DNA from: a virus | IMG/VR virus record: IMGVR_UViG_3300013735_000005 | Span: 1 to 32,906 of that record | Strand: one strand, 5' to 3' | DNA: 32,906 nt | Shown here: positions 10,043-21,975 of the stretch, piece after piece | How positions within the stretch are numbered: the first letter of the stretch is position 1 | How the letters are laid out: every line of letters starts with the position of its first letter | Made by a program: the position numbers and the translations under genes | The notes under the pieces: generated by a model | What the model was told of the DNA's origin: nothing | Seen by the model: only the letters and a program-made list of their open reading frames with translations | The model's database searches: none

Positions 10043-10786
10043 ATGGGAGTAAAAGAAGCATTAGATTGGATGGATAAGCACCACAGACATAAAGGCAACT
10101 ATCCATACAGTATGAAGCAAAGATATGGCAACCCAGGCTATGACTGTTCATCAGCGGTGTATTACGCACTAATAGCAGGTGGAGTACTACCTAAAAATAC
10201 ACCTATAGGTAACACAGAGACACTCTTTAAGCTTAAAGGTAAGTATTTAGATGAGATATATGACTACAAGGATGTAAGAGCAGGAGATATCTTTATAAGA
10301 GGAGGAGAGGGTACAAGTGCTGGAGCTGGTGGACACACTGGCATGTTTTATAAAAAAGACGGCATAATCCACTCTAACTACTCTAACAACGGGATATCTT
10401 ACAATGACAACACTAGTTATATAGGCTACTTTTTAGACCGTAGAAGGAGCAATAACGAACGTTACTTTAGACCTAGGTACGGTGGCTCTAGTAGTTTAGA
10501 TATAGCACCTGCAAAAACACCAACACCACAAAAAGCATCAGGTAAAAAACTTATTAAAAACGAAAAGTGGCATTGTATAACGCAAACAGCTTGTCATGTA
10601 AGAGCAGATGCAAGCACTAACTCAGCTATAGTAGCAACCTATCCTATGGGAGCTAGAATAAACTATGACAGTGTCTACGAAGCAGACGGTTATAGATGGA
10701 TATCCTATATAGGTAACTCTGGTAAGCGTAGATATGTAGCTTATAGACGTACAAGCGGCAATACTAGAGCCTGGGTAACTTTTTAG
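10043..10786 (+). CDS. Endolysin: N-terminal Cys-peptidase/amidase-type catalytic domain (Amidase_5/CHAP-like) plus C-terminal SH3b (SH3_5) cell-wall-binding domain
   Basis: GYDCSSAVYYALIAGG catalytic Cys motif. C-terminal GYRWISYIGNSGKRRYVAYR is SH3_5-like. RBS AAAGGAGG. Confidence 0.8.
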   Translation: MGVKEALDWMDKHHRHKGNYPYSMKQRYGNPGYDCSSAVYYALIAGGVLPKNTPIGNTETLFKLKGKYLDEIYDYKDVRAGDIFIRGGEGTSAGAGGHTGMFYKKDGIIHSNYSNNGISYNDNTSYIGYFLDRRRSNNERYFRPRYGGSSSLDIAPAKTPTPQKASGKKLIKNEKWHCITQTACHVRADASTNSAIVATYPMGARINYDSVYEADGYRWISYIGNSGKRRYVAYRRTSGNTRAWVTF

Positions 10787-12623: not shown

Positions 12624-12704
12624 ATGAGGGATAGTTTAATAATTTTTGTAATAGTACTTTTATCAGCTGCAGTTATATCTCTAGCTATACAAGGTATCAA
12701 ATAG
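12624..12704 (+). CDS. Possible 26-aa transmembrane micropeptide
   Basis: ATG 12624 about 9 nt after GGGAGAG. MRDSLIIFVIVLLSAAVISLAIQGIK is almost entirely one hydrophobic helix. Could be fortuitous. Confidence 0.2.
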   Translation: MRDSLIIFVIVLLSAAVISLAIQGIK

Positions 12705-12761
12705 GGCAAGGCAAAGGCTGAGCTTATAGATAATGAGTTACTACGTAACACAACTTTACAG

Positions 12762-13007
12762 GTGTTAGACTTAGCAGAGACCATAGTAGGCAGTCTTAAT
12801 CAAACTGTAGTAGATCCACTTAAAAACTCTCCAGAACTTAACTTTGATAAAAAAGCTCAGAGAGAAGTTTTGGATAAAGCAAAGGCAGAAATAAAAAGAA
12901 ACCTAGATGATGCAAGTAAAGATGTTTTATCAAAAACATATGATGATCTTGACTCCTACCTCACAGATGTAGTTGAGGCAGAAGTTAGAAAACAAAAAAA
13001 TAAGTAG
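12762..13007 (+). CDS. Hypothetical K/E-rich coiled-coil protein (start uncertain)
   Basis: 81-aa ORF starting at GTG 12762 with no upstream in-frame ATG. Followed directly by a strong terminator. Confidence 0.35.
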   Translation: MLDLAETIVGSLNQTVVDPLKNSPELNFDKKAQREVLDKAKAEIKRNLDDASKDVLSKTYDDLDSYLTDVVEAEVRKQKNK

Positions 13008-13032
13008 TAAGATATAGTAAATGTTTAACTCT

Positions 13033-13061
13033 GGGCTGGCAGTGTGCTGGCCCTCTTTTTT
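13033..13061 (+). terminator. Rho-independent terminator ending the late/fibre operon
   Basis: GGGCTGGC-AGTGT-GCTGGCCC (8-bp stem including two G.T wobbles) followed by TCTTTTTT. Confidence 0.6.
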
Positions 13062-13071
13062 GTGGTATAAT
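13061..13071 (+). promoter_or_regulatory. Extended -10 promoter module TGTGGTATAAT (copy A)
   Basis: TRTG-n-TATAAT Firmicutes extended -10 consensus. The identical 11-mer recurs at 13178 and 16943. Confidence 0.35.
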
Positions 13072-13177
13072 ATAAAAGACAATATAATACAAAAATAAAT
13101 CTAGATAGTGTTTATTTTTTATTTGATGATGTCGCGAGAGCGCATTGCAAAAGAGTGGTCTTTATGGCCGCTATTTT

Positions 13178-13188
13178 TGTGGTATAAT
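13178..13188 (+). promoter_or_regulatory. Extended -10 promoter module TGTGGTATAAT (copy B, part of a ~27-nt duplication of copy A)
   Basis: tttttgtggtataat[a/t]taaaagac duplicated at 13057-13080 and 13174-13197. Confidence 0.35.
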
Positions 13189-13265
13189 TTAAAAGACTAG
13201 TCAGAAAGCAGAAAAGTCCTTCTGTGAGTATAGAACGACAAATGAGATTGTCAGGGCAAGAATTG

Positions 13266-13296
13266 AGGTAACCTATATGGTTGCCTCTTTTTTTGT
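13266..13296 (+). terminator. Rho-independent terminator inside the non-coding island
   Basis: GAGGTAACC-TATAT-GGTTGCCTC (9-bp stem, one wobble) followed by TTTTTTTG. Confidence 0.55.
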
Positions 13297-13446
13297 ATTT
13301 TGATATAAATACTAGGCATATAAGCATATACCTAGCTTTTTTAAATCGCTTATAGCTCAAAATATTGATGAATGGCTTGGTTGCAATAGATGTATCTTAC
13401 TTTTATAAAAAAGTTAATATTTTCTTTAAAAACTTAAAAAAAAGAC

Positions 13447-13474
13447 TTGACATATAACCCCCGTGTGATATAAT
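13447..13474 (+). promoter_or_regulatory. Near-consensus sigma-A-type promoter (TTGACA-N16-TGTGaTATAAT) for the acidic-protein cassette
   Basis: TTGACA at 13447-52, TGTG at 13464-67, TATAAT at 13469-74. RBS AAAGGAGA before ATG 13516. Confidence 0.6.
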
Positions 13475-13515
13475 ATAAGTAACAAAGATAAAAATAAACA
13501 TTAAAGGAGATAAAA

Positions 13516-13773
13516 ATGACAAACACAAGAAAATATTTAAATGAAATTGAAAATTTATACCAAATTAAAGACCTTATTGAGGCAGATGAATATTTAGAAT
13601 ATGACGAAGAAGGTGACGCGTACTTTACAGATAACGAAGAGTTTTATTGGTGGGAAGAACTAGCTGATGCTATGCAATATCTTGATGATAAATGTGTAGA
13701 GCCTAAAGTTGGTCATATGGTTGATTTAGAAGATTATATAAGAATCGCTAAAGGTGTAGGTTTTAGAGCATAA
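13516..13773 (+). CDS. Strongly acidic small protein (85 aa), function unknown
   Basis: RBS AAAGGAGA. I count about 23 Asp/Glu among 85 residues. Aromatic-rich (YWW). Confidence 0.6.
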   Translation: MTNTRKYLNEIENLYQIKDLIEADEYLEYDEEGDAYFTDNEEFYWWEELADAMQYLDDKCVEPKVGHMVDLEDYIRIAKGVGFRA

Positions 13774-14044: not shown

Positions 14045-14235
14045 TGACTAATTTAAAAACTACAGAGGCTCAGCGTAGAGCCTCTAAAAAGTACAAAAAA
14101 AGAAATCCAGAGCAGACAAAAATCAATCGATATAGATCTAATGCTCGAACTTTTGCAAGGCATCATGCAACAAAAGATGATATTGATGAGTTGGTAAAAA
14201 TCTTTGAAAAGGAGAATCCTAATGGTCAAGAGTAG
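14044..14235 (+). CDS. Small basic protein (63 aa), possible DNA-binding protein
   Basis: ATGA overlap with the upstream stop. Lys/Arg-rich N-terminal half (RRASKKYKKRNPEQTKINRYRSNARTFARHH). Confidence 0.45.
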   Translation: MTNLKTTEAQRRASKKYKKRNPEQTKINRYRSNARTFARHHATKDDIDELVKIFEKENPNGQE

Positions 14236-14905
14236 TAAAGATTTACCCAGAGGAATCAGTTATACTAGCGATAGCAAGATATCCCCCTACAAAGCCACGT
14301 ACGCTAAAGACGGCAAGAAATTAAGTAAGTACTGCAAAAATCTAGAAGAAGCTATTAAAATCAGAAAAAATCGGGAAAAGATTTATGGGAAACCAAAAAA
14401 CAGAGCCTTAGATAAGGAGCATTTAGAGGGGCAAAAATTTGGTAAATTAACAGTAAAAAGAAGATTGAAGCAGAAAGATAAGTATGGGTCTTTTTTTTGG
14501 GAATGCCAATGTGATTGTGGAAATTTTATAAACGTTACAGCACAAAGCTTAAAAAACGGTGATGTCATTAGATGCAAACAATGCCGCATAAACGACCTGC
14601 AAAAAGCTGGTGTTAATGCTAAGGTATCAGATGTACAGATAAACGGAGTAGAAATATTAAGATTTAATGATAAAACTAATAAAAATAATAAATCTGGGTT
14701 TAAGGGCGTTATTTTAGAAAAAAGAACTAATAAATATTACGCTCAATTAACTGTTAAAGGTCAGGTTTATACCAAATCAGGATTTGATACAGCAGAAGAT
14801 GCTTACTACAACGGCAGACTGGTTTTAGAAGATGAGTATTTACCTCCAAAAGAGGAGAGGGAAAAGTTAAAAAAAGAAGTTAAGAGCAAGAAAAAAGAGG
14901 ACTGA
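14222..14905 (+). CDS. AP2-like / zinc-ribbon DNA-binding protein (two AP2-type modules flanking a CxCxC...CxxC ribbon)
   Basis: Preferred start is ATG 14222 after AAGGAGAA; the ORF track starts at 14204. C-terminal SGFKGVILEKRTNKYYAQLTVKGQVYTKSGFDTAEDAYYNG fits the AP2 pattern. N-terminal RGISYTS...YKATYAKDGKK...LEEAIKIR is a second AP2-like element. Ribbon is WECQCDCGN...RCKQC. No HNH, GIY-YIG or other nuclease motif found. Confidence 0.55.
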   Translation: MVKSSKDLPRGISYTSDSKISPYKATYAKDGKKLSKYCKNLEEAIKIRKNREKIYGKPKNRALDKEHLEGQKFGKLTVKRRLKQKDKYGSFFWECQCDCGNFINVTAQSLKNGDVIRCKQCRINDLQKAGVNAKVSDVQINGVEILRFNDKTNKNNKSGFKGVILEKRTNKYYAQLTVKGQVYTKSGFDTAEDAYYNGRLVLEDEYLPPKEEREKLKKEVKSKKKED

Positions 14906-14925
14906 GTGTCCTCTTTAATTTGCTT
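14895..14925 (+). terminator. Terminator-like hairpin after the AP2 gene
   Basis: AAGAGGAC-TGAGT-GTCCTCTT perfect 8-bp stem overlapping the stop codon, followed by a T-rich tract. Confidence 0.45.
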
Positions 14926-14953
14926 ATTGTACCAAGTATTTTTTATTTTTTTA

Positions 14954-14972
14954 TTGGGGACAGGTTGGGGAC
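14954..14972. repeat. attP-region direct repeat TTGGGGACAGGTTGGGGAC (copy 1). Candidate integrase arm-type site.
   Basis: Exact 19-nt repeat of 15116-15134. Contains a tandem GGTTGGGGAC sub-repeat. A partial inverted copy CCAACCTGT lies at 14998-15006. Confidence 0.5.
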
Positions 14973-15115
14973 AACGTATATTTTAAATGTTGCAATTCCA
15001 ACCTGTTCTCTTTTTTTATGGTGGAGATGATGGGCAATGAATGGGTGTTGGTATAACTGGGCTTGGCTTGATTTCAATATAGTTTGTTTTGTTATTTTAT
15101 GGTTTTACATATCGG

Positions 15116-15134
15116 TTGGGGACAGGTTGGGGAC
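15116..15134. repeat. attP-region direct repeat TTGGGGACAGGTTGGGGAC (copy 2), abutting the integrase 3' end
   Basis: Exact copy. Lies 5 nt from the integrase stop codon. Confidence 0.5.
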
Positions 15135-15139
15135 CATTA

Positions 15140-16228
15140 TTAGGACGATACATTAAATTTTTGTAATTCTTCGTACACAAAGTCACTTAGGTCTTGGATA
15201 TAAGATTGCTCAGTTATCTTAAAGTCTGTGTGACCCATTAATCTTTGAATTGCTACTTCAGATACTCCGCTTTGGTATGCTATGGTTGCGAAGGTGTATC
15301 TACAGGTGTATGGGGTCTTCCTTTTTACTCCAGCTTTCTTTAGGGCTAGATAATAAATCTTATCATAGAATTTTTTATCATATGTGGTTGCTTTGCCATC
15401 CACTTCTGCTAAAACCCCAGACTTTGATTCTATACATAAGTCCATAAGCATATTTTTAATTTGTGGGTGTATAAACATAGTTCTTGACTTACCTTCATCT
15501 GTCTTAATTCCAAAATTTGTAATTGTGTTGGTTTCAAAGTTTATACTGTCTCTTGTAAGGTTTCTGTATTCTGTAGTCCTCATACCTGTAAAGCACATAA
15601 CTAATATATGCCTAGCGTGTGGATTAGTTGGTATGCTATTAAATAATTTTGTTATTTCATCTTTGGTAAATATCTCTTTTTTATTTTTTTGTTTGATACC
15701 GCCTACTTTCATAAGAGATGCTATATTTTCTGTTACTAAACCATCTTGTAGGGCAATCTTGTATACTTTAGTTGCTACAAGTTTTACTTTTTCTAAGTGA
15801 TCTTTTGAGTATTCTTGATGCGTCATGACTCCATTTACTTTTTTATCGTATCCACGTATAACCATATCATCTAATACTTTTTGTAATTGCGTATATCTAA
15901 TATCTATCATATTTTTATTATGGATTGGCTTATACTCTTTAAATGCATTTTCATATCTTTGTTGAGAATTCTTGCTGATTTTGGTGTATTCATTTGTAGT
16001 CTTGTAGTACTCATATACATCGGCAAATGTTTTAATGTCTGTGAGTCCCATATACTTATCTAAGGCTTCTTCTGCTTCTTTATAGGTCTTGAAAAAGCCT
16101 ATATCTTGTCGCACCTCTTTTCCATTTATTGTGTACCCAGCTGGTAATCTTGCATACCGAGGTCTGGCTCTGCCTTTTTTATGGGATATAGATCCTGTTC
16201 CATTTGCTCTTTTTCTTCTTTTGGGCAC
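15140..16228 (-). CDS. int: Tyrosine-type site-specific integrase
   Basis: C-terminal TCRYTFATIAYQSGVSEVAIQRLMGHTDFKITEQSYI carries the R...H-x-x-R...Y catalytic signature. N-terminal KRANGTGSI...GRARPRYAR arm-binding motif. GTG start with AAGAAGG RBS. Confidence 0.9.
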   Translation of the reverse strand: MPKRRKRANGTGSISHKKGRARPRYARLPAGYTINGKEVRQDIGFFKTYKEAEEALDKYMGLTDIKTFADVYEYYKTTNEYTKISKNSQQRYENAFKEYKPIHNKNMIDIRYTQLQKVLDDMVIRGYDKKVNGVMTHQEYSKDHLEKVKLVATKVYKIALQDGLVTENIASLMKVGGIKQKNKKEIFTKDEITKLFNSIPTNPHARHILVMCFTGMRTTEYRNLTRDSINFETNTITNFGIKTDEGKSRTMFIHPQIKNMLMDLCIESKSGVLAEVDGKATTYDKKFYDKIYYLALKKAGVKRKTPYTCRYTFATIAYQSGVSEVAIQRLMGHTDFKITEQSYIQDLSDFVYEELQKFNVSS

Positions 16229-16969: not shown

Positions 16970-17001
16970 GAGGAGCACCGTTTTGGTGTTCCTCTTTTTT
17001 T
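16970..17001 (+). terminator. Hairpin GAGGAGCACC-GTTTT-GGTGTTCCTC plus T7 in the cI-lipoprotein spacer. The T-run is on the + strand side.
   Basis: 10-bp stem with one mismatch. TTTTTTT follows only on the + strand and overlaps the cI stop. Confidence 0.4.
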
Positions 17002-17653
17002 ACCTAATATTCTGTTTGTATATACCTATGACTTGTCCTAGTATCTTGATGTTTTTTCCATCATCTTCTGTAATTATGATAGGACTATACGCACTATTTT
17101 CTGGCTGTAGTACTATCTTATCATCACTTTTATAAAATCTTTTTAGTGTTGTGTCATCATCGATTAGTACTGCTGCTATAGATCCATTTTCTACGTCTGG
17201 GGTCTGACTTATAAAAACATAGTCACCTTCGTGGATACCAGCGTCTATCATGCTATCGCCTTCAGCTCTTAGGATAAAGTCTCCCTTTATTATAGATGGA
17301 TCTGATAAAAAGTAACCGTCTAGGTTTTCTTGGGCTAGTATTGGGTCACCACAGGCTATTTCTCCTAAGATTGGTATCAATCTACCTTTTTGCATGGGGA
17401 TTGCTCCTGGGATGTCTTCGATATTTATTTTTTCTTCTATTAAATCTGATTTGTCTATCCCAAAATAATTAGCTAGCAACTCAATTTTATCTATTCTAGG
17501 ATATTTTTTTCCATTTACCCAATCACTAAGTGTAGAGTAGGGCGTGTCTAATATTTCTGCTAATTTCGTCCTAGATATATCTTTATCATCCATATACATT
17601 TTTAGATTTCTAGAAAATATATCTTTATTCCCCAAATCATTTCTTTTTGACAT
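17000..17653 (-). CDS. cI: CI-type lysogeny repressor (HTH_XRE plus S24 LexA-like autopeptidase)
   Basis: N-terminal HTH (RTKLAEILDTPYSTLSDWVNGKKYP). C-terminal GDSM...KRF Ser/Lys dyad region. Divergent from cro. RBS GAAAGGAGG. Confidence 0.85.
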   Translation of the reverse strand: MSKRNDLGNKDIFSRNLKMYMDDKDISRTKLAEILDTPYSTLSDWVNGKKYPRIDKIELLANYFGIDKSDLIEEKINIEDIPGAIPMQKGRLIPILGEIACGDPILAQENLDGYFLSDPSIIKGDFILRAEGDSMIDAGIHEGDYVFISQTPDVENGSIAAVLIDDDTTLKRFYKSDDKIVLQPENSAYSPIIITEDDGKNIKILGQVIGIYKQNIR

Positions 17654-21078: not shown

Positions 21079-21975
21079 ATGACTAACGCAAAACAAGCAT
21101 TAAGCAAGAAAACTAATAGTAAACCAGCACCACAGGATAATGTAAGGAATCTACTTATGAGTATGAAAGGGGAGATAAACAATGCCCTACCTCAATACTT
21201 GCCTACTGAGAAGTTTATAAGGACAGGCTTAACTGCTATTAATAGCAATCCTAAGTTACTGCAATGTAGTCCACAGTCTTTACTTGCTGCAGTGATGAAC
21301 TCAGCACAGTTAGGGCTTGAGTTTAATACTCCACTAGGTGAGTCTTATTTGATACCTTATGACAATAAGAGAAAAGGAATTGTAGAAGTTCAGTTCCAAA
21401 TTGGATACCAAGGACTCCTAAAATTAGCACACAACACAGGTCAATTCAGAAGAATAACTGCTAAGGAAGTACACGAGAACGATGACTTTGATATTGACTA
21501 TGGAACTGGAGAGATCAAACATAAACCAGTTCTAATCGGAGAATCTGGAGATGTGATTGGCTACTATGCTGTTTATGAAACCAAAGAAGGTGGTCGTGAT
21601 AGCTTCTACATGAGTAAAGAGGATGCAGAAGCCTACGGAAAGAAGTTTTCTAAAAGCTATTACAAAAAAGATGGCCCATGGCAACAAAATCCAGATGCTA
21701 TGGCTAAGAAGTCTTGCATCATTCAAGTGCTTAAATACGCCCCTAAGGCAATTGATAAGCCTGAGCTAGGCCAAGCTATGGCTTATGACAATCAAGTCTT
21801 TAAATCGTCAAATACTGATGCAGAAACAGGTGGTATTACTTATGATATTGACTATGAAGTTGTGGAAGATGAGCCAGAACAAAAGCAAGAGCCTAAGGTG
21901 GATAAGGAGACTGGGGAAGTTTTGGAAGATGACTTCTTTGAGGATGATTTTGAGCCTGTAAAAGATGACAAGTAA
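21079..21975 (+). CDS. recT: RecT-family single-strand annealing recombinase
   Basis: SPQSLLAAVMNSAQLGLEFNTPLGESYLIPY...VQFQIGYQGL is RecT-like. RBS AAAAGGAGA. Confidence 0.8.
   Translation: MTNAKQALSKKTNSKPAPQDNVRNLLMSMKGEINNALPQYLPTEKFIRTGLTAINSNPKLLQCSPQSLLAAVMNSAQLGLEFNTPLGESYLIPYDNKRKGIVEVQFQIGYQGLLKLAHNTGQFRRITAKEVHENDDFDIDYGTGEIKHKPVLIGESGDVIGYYAVYETKEGGRDSFYMSKEDAEAYGKKFSKSYYKKDGPWQQNPDAMAKKSCIIQVLKYAPKAIDKPELGQAMAYDNQVFKSSNTDAETGGITYDIDYEVVEDEPEQKQEPKVDKETGEVLEDDFFEDDFEPVKDDK

What the first reader, a model, noticed from the sequence alone, without database searches (positions are those of the whole stretch)
13008..13515. About 500-bp non-coding island with three terminator hairpins, a duplicated promoter module and room for short non-coding RNAs
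No credible ORF lies between 13008 and 13515. The only ORF-track hit is a low-complexity reverse ORF running through the terminators. The region contains:
- a strong terminator at 13033-13061, immediately followed by TGTGGTATAAT at 13061-71;
- a second copy of the same module about 117 bp downstream, part of a 27-nt duplication tttttgtggtataat[a/t]taaaagac;
- another terminator at 13266-13296;
- the consensus promoter at 13447.
Transcripts from the two extended -10 elements would end at the internal terminators. That gives RNAs of roughly 50-220 nt. One has an internal hairpin, CAGAAAAGTCCTTCTG, but no coding capacity beyond a 9-codon ORF. This looks like one or two prophage-encoded sRNA genes, or a transcriptional insulation block, at the late/moron boundary.
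Basis: seen in the sequence. Interest (0 to 1): 0.55.

Follow-up and report, generated by a model that had tools for sequence, protein, structure and literature searches.

The report
Two small-RNA genes in prophage
The 500-bp gap after the lysis genes of this Anaerococcus phage holds two self-contained small-RNA genes, each with its own promoter and terminator. Related prophages carry them as swappable cassettes, so this is a credible but functionally unexplained case of phage-borne regulatory RNA.

Summary

- **Layout.** Window 13008-13515 holds no conserved ORF. It contains the late-operon terminator T1, then two tandem units of about 100 nt, a degenerate third joint, a conserved spacer and a consensus promoter. 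Each unit starts at TGTGGTATAAT, which overlaps the previous terminator's T-tract, and ends at an intrinsic terminator.
- **Host.** The phage infects Anaerococcus.
- **Unit 2 (13195-13294).** It recurs in at least 11 short variants and several long forms of 155-180 nt in related prophages. The -10 hexamer always lies 6 nt before the conserved GACTAGTC. Its three helices are 96% paired, 8 pairs show compensatory changes, and 0 of 500 shuffles match this.
- **Unit 1 (13078-13176).** It recurs in 5 variants, mostly about 58 nt, with a GAGA-loop hairpin.
- **Mobility.** The units occur alone, together or in reverse order, next to varying cargo. The same joint, TTTTGTGGTATAAT, is always used.
- **Identity.** No Rfam, phage-database, Pfam or PHROG match was found.
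- **Function.** Unknown. The best guess is stand-alone RNAs expressed from the lysogen that act in trans ("RNA morons").
- **Verdict.** New members of a known kind. Moderate interest.

The parts
13033..13061 (+). T1, the intrinsic terminator of the late/lysis operon: stem 13033-13053 and T-tract 13054-13061.
   Evidence: Found by the scan. Relatives keep it with compensatory or wobble changes: L001 has GGGCTAGC..GCTAGCCC, and L007 and L030 differ similarly.
13061..13071 (+). P1, an extended -10 promoter of the TRTGnTATAAT type (TGTGGTATAAT). It overlaps the T1 T-tract and has no -35 match.
   Evidence: The same joint, TTTTGTGGTATAAT, precedes 14 different terminator/cargo combinations in relatives.
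13078..13176 (+). Unit 1, a predicted sRNA of about 99 nt. It has an AT-rich 5' leader of about 45 nt, a conserved hairpin and the T2 terminator.
   Evidence: The core is conserved in L007, L015, L020-22 and L063, where the RNA is mostly about 58 nt without the leader. Fold z-scores are -2.9 to -3.6.
13127..13147 (+). Unit 1 hairpin: 8 bp with a bulged U and a GAGA (GNRA) tetraloop.
   Evidence: All cells are paired. Two pairs switch between A-U/G-C and G-C/A-U. Invariant G.U pairs indicate that the + strand RNA is the folded molecule.
13154..13178 (+). T2, the terminator of unit 1: stem 13154-13172 and a T-tract.
   Evidence: One stem pair is seen as C-G, U-G and U-A.
13178..13188 (+). P2, the second copy of the extended -10 promoter TGTGGTATAAT.
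   Evidence: In every unit 2 variant the -10 hexamer ends exactly 6 nt before GACTAGTC.
13195..13294 (+). Unit 2, a predicted sRNA of about 100 nt. Order of elements: 5' GACUAGUC-AGAAAG, hairpin P1, GUGAGUA, hairpin P2, AGGGCAAGAAUUG, terminator T3.
   Evidence: At least 8 short and 6 or more long variants exist. Covariance model R1 scores 96-118 bits in 24 loci and 58-66 bits in 3 long-form loci, always on the strand of the holin gene. Fold z-score is -3.3.
13208..13225 (+). Unit 2 hairpin P1, with a 6-bp stem and the conserved loop AAAGUCC.
   Evidence: 97.9% of cells are paired and 3 pairs change on both sides.
13237..13252 (+). Unit 2 hairpin P2. Its sequence is hypervariable but the pairing is conserved.
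   Evidence: 93.8% of cells are paired and 3 pairs change on both sides.
13265..13294 (+). T3, the terminator of unit 2: stem 13265-13287 and seven T.
   Evidence: 97.2% of cells are paired and 2 pairs change on both sides.
13288..13313 (+). Degenerate third copy of the joint (TTTTTTTGTATTTTGATATAAATAC). It has no good -10 hexamer.
   Evidence: Third member of repeat family D1, 64% identical, spaced 116 nt from the second copy.
13312..13342 (.). Imperfect palindrome CTAGGCATAT..ATATACCTAG followed by TTTTTT. It could be a fourth weak or bidirectional terminator, or a protein-binding site.
   Evidence: The scan flags it on the - strand. It is conserved, with scattered mismatches, in most relatives.
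13296..13446 (.). Conserved non-coding spacer of unknown role. It is kept even in relatives that lack both units.
   Evidence: Present in L017, L006, L007, L015 and L060.
13447..13474 (+). Consensus sigma-A/sigma-70 promoter (TTGACA-16-TG-TATAAT) for the downstream operon of small acidic proteins, which starts at 13516.
   Evidence: One search gives a 12/12 match. It is identical or nearly identical in relatives.

Best explanation
The island contains two independent small-RNA genes, carried as "RNA morons" in the variable slot between the lysis cassette and the lysogeny and accessory genes of a temperate Anaerococcus siphophage.

**How it most likely works**
- T1 ends late transcription after the holin gene.
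- A -35-independent extended -10 promoter, TGTGGTATAAT, overlaps the T1 T-tract.
- This promoter starts unit 1 at about 13078, and T2 ends it at about 13176.
- An identical promoter overlapping the T2 T-tract starts unit 2 at G13195, and T3 ends it at about 13294.
- Both RNAs fold into conserved hairpins.
- They most likely act in trans in the lysogen, by base pairing or by binding a protein. They are unlikely to regulate the neighbouring genes in cis.
- The shared T-tract/promoter joint also serves as the homology at which such cassettes are exchanged between phages.

**Shown:** the sequence elements, their conservation, the RNA-level covariation, modular mobility and absence of coding.

**Inferred:** transcription, the exact RNA ends, action in trans and expression in the lysogen.

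**Unknown:** the target and the biological role.
For: - **Promoter and terminator signals** are far above chance.
- **Host and family.** Holin homologues place the element in Anaerococcus chromosomes and MAGs.
- **Unit 2 conservation starts at the predicted start site.** It begins exactly 7 nt after the -10 hexamer in all variants. The 6-nt discriminator and everything upstream vary.
- **Unit 2 structure.** 21 pairs are 96.4% paired. 8 pairs show changes on both sides. 0 of 500 shuffles reach this, and slid controls give 39-53% pairing. The hairpins P1 and P2, which are not terminators, carry six of these pairs.
- **Strand.** G.U pairs are kept only on the + strand.
- **Unit 1 structure.** 15 pairs are 100% paired, with 3 pairs changed on both sides.
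- **Folding energy.** z-scores are -2.9 to -3.6.
- **Independent mobility**:
  - L007 and L015 carry only unit 1.
  - L040, L011 and L006 carry only unit 2.
  - The window and L022 carry unit 1 then unit 2.
  - L063 carries unit 2 then unit 1.
  - L064 is a recombinant between the two terminators.
  - L017 has neither unit.
- **Shared joint.** The same joint precedes 14 different combinations. These include a 27-aa hydrophobic peptide gene and a further RNA unit of about 100 nt.
- **No coding.** Unit lengths of 98-103 nt differ by 1-2 nt indels in loops. Reverse ORFs have no family hit. The only shared mini-ORF in unit 1 has a stop at codon 4 in L007.
- **Precedent.** EHEC lambdoid prophages carry short sRNAs at moron sites (PMC4104026).
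Against: - There are no expression data of any kind.
- The sampled relatives are close. R1 has an effective sequence number of 1.14, so several compensatory changes may be single inherited events.
- Evidence for unit 1 rests on 5 variants and about 2 events.
- No target was found. The only notable complementarity is a 15/16 match to recT at 21188-21203 (E about 0.15). It does not covary with the sRNA variant.
- In this window, unit 1 carries an AT-rich leader of about 45 nt that other versions lack. That could be a sign of decay.
- The phage's own holin carries a nonsense codon, so the element may be degenerating.
Confidence: 0.6

Rival explanations
1. The island is an insulation block or decayed moron scars. 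The terminator-promoter pairs only separate late transcription from the lysogen-expressed accessory genes, or they are what remains after cargo genes were deleted. The short transcripts have no function of their own.
For: - Three to four terminators stand in tandem directly after the late operon.
- The third joint is degenerate.
- The joint also precedes protein cargo in relatives.
- Recombinants such as L064 show that deletions occur here.
- The holin is a pseudogene.
Against: - Hairpins that are not terminators are maintained by compensatory changes across variants. These are unit 2 P1 and P2 and the unit 1 GAGA hairpin.
- The unpaired blocks GACUAGUC.GAAAG, AAAGUCC and AGGGCAA stay conserved even in phages whose holin is only 45-50% identical.
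- The units are carried into different contexts as intact promoter-to-terminator cassettes.
Confidence: 0.2
2. Unit 2 is a cis-acting leader, of the riboswitch or attenuator type. Its terminator T3 would control read-through into downstream genes in response to a ligand, protein or RNA.
For: - The 5' domain looks aptamer-like: a possible P0 helix (ACUAGUC/GAGUAGU) encloses a conserved GGAAAG loop and P1.
- AGGGCAA can pair with the 3' arm of T3 (UUGCCU). This is an antiterminator-like alternative, and RNAalifold chose it on the mixed alignment.
Against: - Downstream context is not conserved. It can be the spacer with a strong promoter, a hicAB-operator unit, unit 1, or other units.
- In the window the next genes have their own consensus promoter 150 nt further on.
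- The alternative pairing shows no covariation.
- Long forms replace the 3' part altogether yet still end in a terminator.
- No Rfam riboswitch matches.
Confidence: 0.08
3. The units are parts or relics of a type I toxin-antitoxin locus, or another RNA antitoxin or anti-defence RNA linked to the toxin modules that populate this slot. HicAB is the main example.
For: - Seven of eleven unit 2 contexts lie next to hicAB.
- In L030 the same joint drives a 27-aa hydrophobic, type I toxin-like ORF.
Against: - The window has no hicAB and no conserved small hydrophobic ORF in the island.
- Unit 2 lies upstream or downstream of hicAB, or without it.
- No antisense overlap or extended complementarity to a neighbouring gene was seen.
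- No word longer than 9 nt is shared with published Anaerococcus CRISPR repeats.
Confidence: 0.07
4. The region is protein-coding. Candidates are the 82-aa reverse ORF 13112-13360 and small forward ORFs.
For: A stop-free reverse stretch of 94 codons exists in the window. A 146-aa reverse ORF is called in L019, L103 and L104.
Against: - Neither reverse ORF has a Pfam or PHROG hit.
- The reverse frame is interrupted at different places in L022, L040 and L063.
- Indels of 1-2 nt between variants, G.U-containing helices and compensatory changes fit RNA, not codons.
- The forward mini-ORFs lack Shine-Dalgarno sites and are not conserved.
Confidence: 0.02

Closest known systems
Short sRNAs at the moron insertion site of EHEC lambdoid prophages: the anti-sRNAs AsxR and AgvB and the EcOnc01-03 group (Tree et al. 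2014, PMC4104026)
   Same: - They are prophage-borne, free-standing sRNA genes of 50-100 nt.
- They sit in a slot that tolerates insertions next to the late or lysis genes.
- They form families of related but non-identical copies at the same position in different prophages.
- The short form of unit 1, about 58 nt, is in the same size class.
   Different: - The host is an anaerobic Gram-positive coccus, not E. coli, and dependence on Hfq is unlikely.
- The units here are co-directional and tandem, not convergent pairs.
- There is no sequence or structural similarity.
- No target is known here, and expression has not been shown.
Morons of lambdoid and other temperate phages (Juhala et al. 2000, as cited in PMC4104026). 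These are autonomous units of promoter, cargo and terminator, present in some relatives and absent in others.
   Same: Each unit has its own promoter and terminator. Each is present or absent between otherwise collinear genes in relatives. The location is near the end of the late operon.
   Different: - The cargo is a non-coding RNA rather than a protein gene.
- The units share one standardised terminator/promoter joint, TTTTGTGGTATAAT.
Type I toxin-antitoxin sRNAs in Firmicute prophages, such as bsrG/SR4 in SPbeta and txpA/RatA in skin (recalled from my own knowledge, not checked here)
   Same: They are small, structured RNAs of about 100 nt with their own promoter and terminator, in prophage accessory regions. 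A type I toxin-like peptide gene occupies the same slot in relative L030.
   Different: The window has no partner toxin ORF and no antisense overlap. Unit 1 and unit 2 are co-directional with everything around them.
Rfam release 15 families (4227 models)
   Same: Nothing reaches a gathering score. The best sub-threshold hits are driven by terminators (L20 leader 22.5 bits against a threshold of 58.7; SAM-V 22.6 against 41).
   Different: Neither the short nor the long form of unit 2, nor unit 1, matches any model. The apparent word matches to RNase P CR-I (GGAAAGUCC) and to 4.5S/SRP RNA (GGCAGAUGACGC in L019) are not backed by the covariance models.

Membership tests
Intrinsic (Rho-independent) terminator | G+C-rich hairpin immediately followed by a U-tract on the transcribed strand. 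| tested here: met
   T1, T2 and T3 were found by the scan, which gave 9 sites against 1.4 expected in the region. The T3 and T2 stems are maintained with compensatory and wobble changes.
Extended -10 (TRTGnTATAAT) sigma-A/sigma-70 promoter | TATAAT hexamer with TG one base upstream, at a fixed distance from the transcript start. Activity is independent of a -35 element. | tested here: inconclusive
   The sequence features are met: TGTGGTATAAT occurs twice, and there is a constant 6-nt gap to the conserved block in all unit 2 variants. Promoter activity cannot be tested with these tools.
Moron (autonomous insertion unit in a phage genome) | Own promoter and terminator, and present in some but absent from other otherwise collinear relatives. 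| tested here: met
   Presence, absence and order vary among L007, L015, L017, L022, L040, L063 and the window. The cargo is RNA, which departs from the classical protein-coding moron.
Structured non-coding RNA | Base pairs maintained by compensatory substitutions beyond what relatedness gives, on one strand only. | tested here: met
   Unit 2: 8 of 21 pairs changed on both sides, 96.4% paired, 0 of 500 shuffles, slid controls no higher than 53%. Unit 1: 3 of 15 pairs, 2 of 500 shuffles, which is weaker because there are only 5 sequences. No tree-aware test such as R-scape was available.
Trans-acting base-pairing sRNA | A conserved unpaired seed with a complementary target that covaries or is experimentally regulated. 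| tested here: inconclusive
   Conserved unpaired blocks exist. The only candidate target in the phage, recT 21188-21203 with a 15/16 match, does not covary. The host genome was not available for target search.
Riboswitch or transcription-attenuation leader | The conserved RNA is followed, with no intervening promoter, by a conserved regulated gene. | tested here: not met
   The downstream neighbour differs between variants, and each has its own promoter.
Type I toxin-antitoxin system | A small hydrophobic toxin ORF with a ribosome-binding site, plus an overlapping or complementary antisense RNA. | tested here: not met
   The window island has no conserved small ORF. L007 has a stop at codon 4 of the only shared mini-ORF. 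The minus-strand promoter-like site is not conserved.
RNA anti-CRISPR (solitary repeat mimic) | Sequence similarity to the host CRISPR repeat. | tested here: inconclusive
   The longest word shared with two published Anaerococcus repeats and two related type II repeats is 9 nt, which is at chance level. The repeats of the actual host are unknown.
Any Rfam 15 family | Covariance-model score at or above the family's gathering threshold. | tested here: not met
   There were 0 matches at gathering score over the whole window. The island and the long forms gave nothing significant at permissive E-values.

The most novel reading that the evidence does not exclude
Unit 2 may be the minimal version of a previously undescribed structured RNA family, with short forms of about 100 nt and long forms of 155-180 nt.

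- Its conserved 5' domain would be a P0 helix enclosing a GGAAAG loop and a hairpin that presents AAAGUCC.
- That domain would bind a protein or ligand rather than an mRNA. One possibility is a decoy or inhibitor of a host or competitor-phage nuclease or toxin such as HicA.
- The T-tract/TGTGGTATAAT joint would be a standard linker. It would let Anaerococcus prophages shuffle RNA cassettes and toxin-antitoxin cassettes within a dedicated hot spot after the lysis genes.
Probability: 0.15. Interest if true: 0.7.

Novelty: new member of a known kind. Interest (0 to 1): 0.42.

Why it matters
Phage-borne regulatory RNAs are well documented in enterobacteria. They are almost unexplored in Gram-positive anaerobic cocci of the human skin, gut and vaginal microbiota.

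This locus offers:
- two, and in relatives five or more, candidate sRNA families, none matching an existing Rfam model and with precise predicted ends;
- covariation support for their structures;
- a clear picture of how they move, as promoter-to-terminator cassettes exchanged at a shared joint.

If the RNAs are expressed in lysogens, they are candidates for lysogenic conversion, superinfection exclusion or anti-defence functions in Anaerococcus. The covariance model for unit 2 can be used directly to annotate related prophages. The finding is solid but not surprising in kind, and it remains without a function.

Tried and rejected
- **Rfam.** The whole window at gathering score gave nothing. 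The island and the long forms at E up to 10 gave only terminator-driven, sub-threshold hits.
- **tRNA and tmRNA.** None found.
- **INPHARED phage records.** blastn at distant sensitivity with 1.2 kb, and megablast with 25 kb, gave no match.
- **Exact-pattern scans.**
  - The joint had 0 hits in IMG/VR.
  - The unit patterns recovered only 2-3 IMG/VR contigs each.
  - The unit 2 pattern found 1 metagenome contig.
  - The unit 1 pattern had 0 hits in one genome per species.
  - The family is therefore narrow.
- **Target search inside the phage.** The only notable complementarity is unit 2 13255-13270 against recT 21188-21203, 15/16, E about 0.15. I rejected it because phage 3300008617_000016 carries a different unit 2 variant but the same recT site.
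- **CRISPR-repeat mimicry.** No meaningful similarity to published Anaerococcus, Filifactor or Gemella repeats.
- **tracrRNA nexus resemblance (GACUAGUC against GGCUAGUCC).** This was recalled from memory only. No literature links Anaerococcus with tracrRNA, so I did not pursue it.
- **RNase P CR-I and SRP RNA word matches.** The covariance models do not support them.
- **Coding.** The reverse ORFs and the forward mini-ORFs were rejected.
- **Minus-strand promoter-like site 13254-13227.** Its hexamers fall in positions that vary among unit 2 variants, so it is probably chance.
- **Pseudoknot between 5' GACU and the P1 loop AGUC.** L022 changes the loop to AGAC with no compensating change, so I did not adopt it.

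Full report
**1. What is in the sequence**

The window is a temperate siphophage genome of about 33 kb.
- Tail genes run up to 12608.
- An Amidase_5/SH3_5 endolysin lies at 10043-10786.
- A holin lies at 12624-13007.
- Small acidic ORFs follow from 13516.
- An HNH/AP2-like gene lies at 14204-14905.
- A tyrosine integrase lies at 15140-16228 on the minus strand.
- A CI-like repressor lies at 17000-17653 on the minus strand.
- RecE/RecT and terminase genes lie further on.

- T1: stem 13033-13053 with a T-tract.
- TGTGGTATAAT at 13061-13071.
- T2: stem 13154-13172 with a T-tract.
- A second TGTGGTATAAT at 13178-13188.
- T3: stem 13265-13287 followed by seven T.
- A perfect TTGACA-16-TG-TATAAT promoter at 13447-13474.

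These signals exceed chance. The 3.5 kb around the island has 9 terminator-like sites against 1.4 +/- 1.1 in shuffles. The 15-mer TTTTTGTGGTATAAT occurs only at these two places in the window.

The repeat is larger than reported. It is 33 nt at 85% identity, with a third, degenerate copy at 13281-13313. Spacing is 117 and 116 nt.

A further imperfect palindrome with a T-run lies at 13312-13342.

**2. Where it comes from**

Nothing similar is in INPHARED. Holin homologues place the phage family in Anaerococcus. They occur in the chromosome of Anaerococcus sp. DFU013_CI05, in two Anaerococcus MAGs and in A. nagyae.

I collected about 100 related loci, using exact-protein look-ups of holin variants and IMG/VR scans.

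**3. The island is made of cassettes**

*Unit 2 (window 13195-13294).* It recurs in 8 short variants of 98-103 nt and at least 6 long variants of 155-180 nt. In every one the -10 hexamer ends exactly 6 nt before the conserved GACTAGTC. The 6-nt discriminator and everything upstream differ. Conservation therefore begins at the predicted +1.

*Unit 1 (13078-13176).* It recurs in 5 variants. Outside the window type it is only about 58 nt, because the AT-rich leader of about 45 nt is missing.

*Independent movement*:
- unit 1 alone in L007 and L015;
- unit 2 alone in L006, L011 and L040;
- unit 1 then unit 2 in the window and L022;
- unit 2 then unit 1 in L063;
- a recombinant between the two terminators in L064;
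- neither unit in L017.

*A shared joint.* TTTTGTGGTATAAT links 14 distinct terminator/cargo combinations. The cargo includes a 27-aa hydrophobic peptide gene with a Shine-Dalgarno site in L030 and another RNA-like unit of about 100 nt in L060.

*Other occupants of the slot.* HicAB modules, a duplicated hicAB-operator mini-unit and a short "AAGGCAATATC + terminator" unit occupy the same position in relatives. In L019 about 1 kb after the holin consists of five or more such units.

**4. RNA-level evidence**

*Unit 2.* I tested a three-helix model (P1, P2 and the terminator) on 8 distinct sequences.
- It is 96.4% paired.
- 8 of 21 pairs change on both sides.
- 0 of 500 column shuffles reach the observed values.
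- Sliding the 3' partners by 1-3 columns drops pairing to 39-53%.

P2 is hypervariable in sequence yet always pairs (GACAA/UUGUC, GGCAGA/UCUGCC, GAUAGA/UCUAUC and others). P1 varies in its stem (CAGAA/UUCUG, CAAAA/UUUUG, CGGUA/UACCG) but keeps its loop, AAAGUCC.

*Unit 1.* The hairpin has a GAGA tetraloop and a bulged U. It is 100% paired, with two pairs swapped (A-U to G-C and G-C to A-U), and the terminator adds one more. This rests on only five sequences.

*Strand.* G.U pairs are invariant in several helices of both units, which points to the + strand RNA.

*Folding energy.* z-scores are -2.9 to -3.6.

*Model search.* Covariance model R1 finds unit 2 in 27 of 74 sources, always on the holin strand, and finds no more distant copies.

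*Long forms.* These keep the 5' domain and replace the simple terminator. They add a G.U-rich long hairpin and a longer terminator domain. On them RNAalifold also proposes a P0 helix between the 5' end (ACUAGUC) and GAGUAGU. That would explain why these two blocks are conserved. Both strands are nearly invariant, however, so P0 is untested.

**5. Not coding**

- The 82-aa reverse ORF of the window and a 146-aa reverse ORF called in L019-like loci have no Pfam or PHROG hit.
- The reverse frame breaks at different places in relatives.
- Unit 2 variants differ by 1-2 nt indels that lie in loops.
- The 9-codon forward ORF is not conserved.
- The only mini-ORF shared by unit 1 variants has TGA at codon 4 in L007.

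**6. What it is not**

- No Rfam family matches the short or the long forms.
- There are no tRNA or tmRNA genes.
- There is no similarity to published Anaerococcus CRISPR repeats.
- Word-level resemblances to RNase P CR-I and to SRP RNA are not supported by the covariance models.
- A cis-regulatory leader is unlikely. The downstream neighbour changes from phage to phage, and here it has its own consensus promoter.
- A type I toxin-antitoxin reading fails for lack of a toxin ORF in the window.

**7. Mechanism and its limits**

The best-supported account is two autonomous sRNA genes. Each is transcribed from a -35-independent extended -10 promoter that overlaps the preceding terminator's T-tract. 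Each ends at its own terminator. Both sit in the accessory slot, which is typically expressed from the prophage.

The closest documented analogue is the family of 51-60-nt anti-sRNAs and other short sRNAs at the moron site of EHEC lambdoid prophages (PMC4104026).

The target or partner is unknown. The one candidate site in the phage, in recT with a 15/16 match, does not covary with the sRNA and is treated as chance.

Transcription, RNA ends, expression in the lysogen and action in trans are inferences.

**8. Verdict**

- The sRNA interpretation is supported by comparative genomics.
- The kind is known (prophage moron-encoded sRNAs).
- The two RNA families match no Rfam model, and my literature searches found no description of them.
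- Interest is moderate, at 0.42.

Noticed in passing
window 12624-13007 (TAG at 12702-12704): The holin gene has an in-frame TAG where relatives read GAG (..AIQGIKEGKAKAEL..). L002 shares the stop, and the L008 holin looks frameshifted. The phage may be lysis-defective, or a cryptic prophage lineage.
   Followed up: partly
window 13296-13446: A non-coding spacer of about 150 nt is conserved in nearly every relative, including those without unit 1 or unit 2. It contains the imperfect palindrome CTAGGCATAT..ATATACCTAG with a T-run, then AAATCGCTTATAGCTCAAAATATTGATGA. Its role is unknown. It could be an operator, a bidirectional terminator or a tiny transcript.
   Followed up: partly
L030 3484-3567 (also L031-L039, L050): Directly after the same T1/TGTGGTATAAT joint, relatives carry a 27-aa hydrophobic ORF with a Shine-Dalgarno site (MNILDILNIVLLILTIIDKILEIKKHK). 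It resembles a type I toxin.
   Followed up: no
L001 4900-5030; L006 4545-4690; L011 2800-2950; L030 4015-4160: Upstream of hicAB there is a duplicated copy of the hicAB promoter/operator (TTGACA..GTATCATATATAGTA..). It is followed by a conserved transcript of about 55 nt and its own terminator, and only then by the real hicAB promoter.
   Followed up: no
L019 4391-5369 (also L102-L104, L010, L085-L088): About 1 kb after the holin consists of five or more consecutive units of promoter, short RNA and terminator, and it has no credible ORF. It includes a long form of unit 2 of about 180 nt and a recurrent unit, 'AAGGCAATATC + terminator', also seen in L001, L009, L015 and L023.
   Followed up: partly
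L064 3684-3790 compared with L063 3684-3880: L064 is a natural recombinant or deletion. It joins the body of unit 2 to the terminator of unit 1 at the shared GACCTTTATGG segment. This shows that the terminators act as crossover points.
   Followed up: no
window 21188-21203 (recT): The recT mRNA is complementary to unit 2 13255-13270 at 15 of 16 positions. The site is identical in a phage with a different unit 2 variant, so this is probably chance.
   Followed up: yes
window 14894-15139; L017 5625-5700; L006 5585-5790: A bidirectional terminator lies at 14894-16. In relatives, repeated TGTGGGCAA motifs (likely integrase arm sites of attP or attR) lie next to the integrase. The window carries the integrase contiguous with the accessory genes, so it represents the phage (attP) form or a circularly permuted assembly.
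   Followed up: no
L095-L098 (about 240 nt after the holin): In more distant relatives the slot after the holin carries a Fic-domain protein gene followed by the long unit 2 and a HicB-like gene. An IS110-family transposase lies nearby.
   Followed up: no
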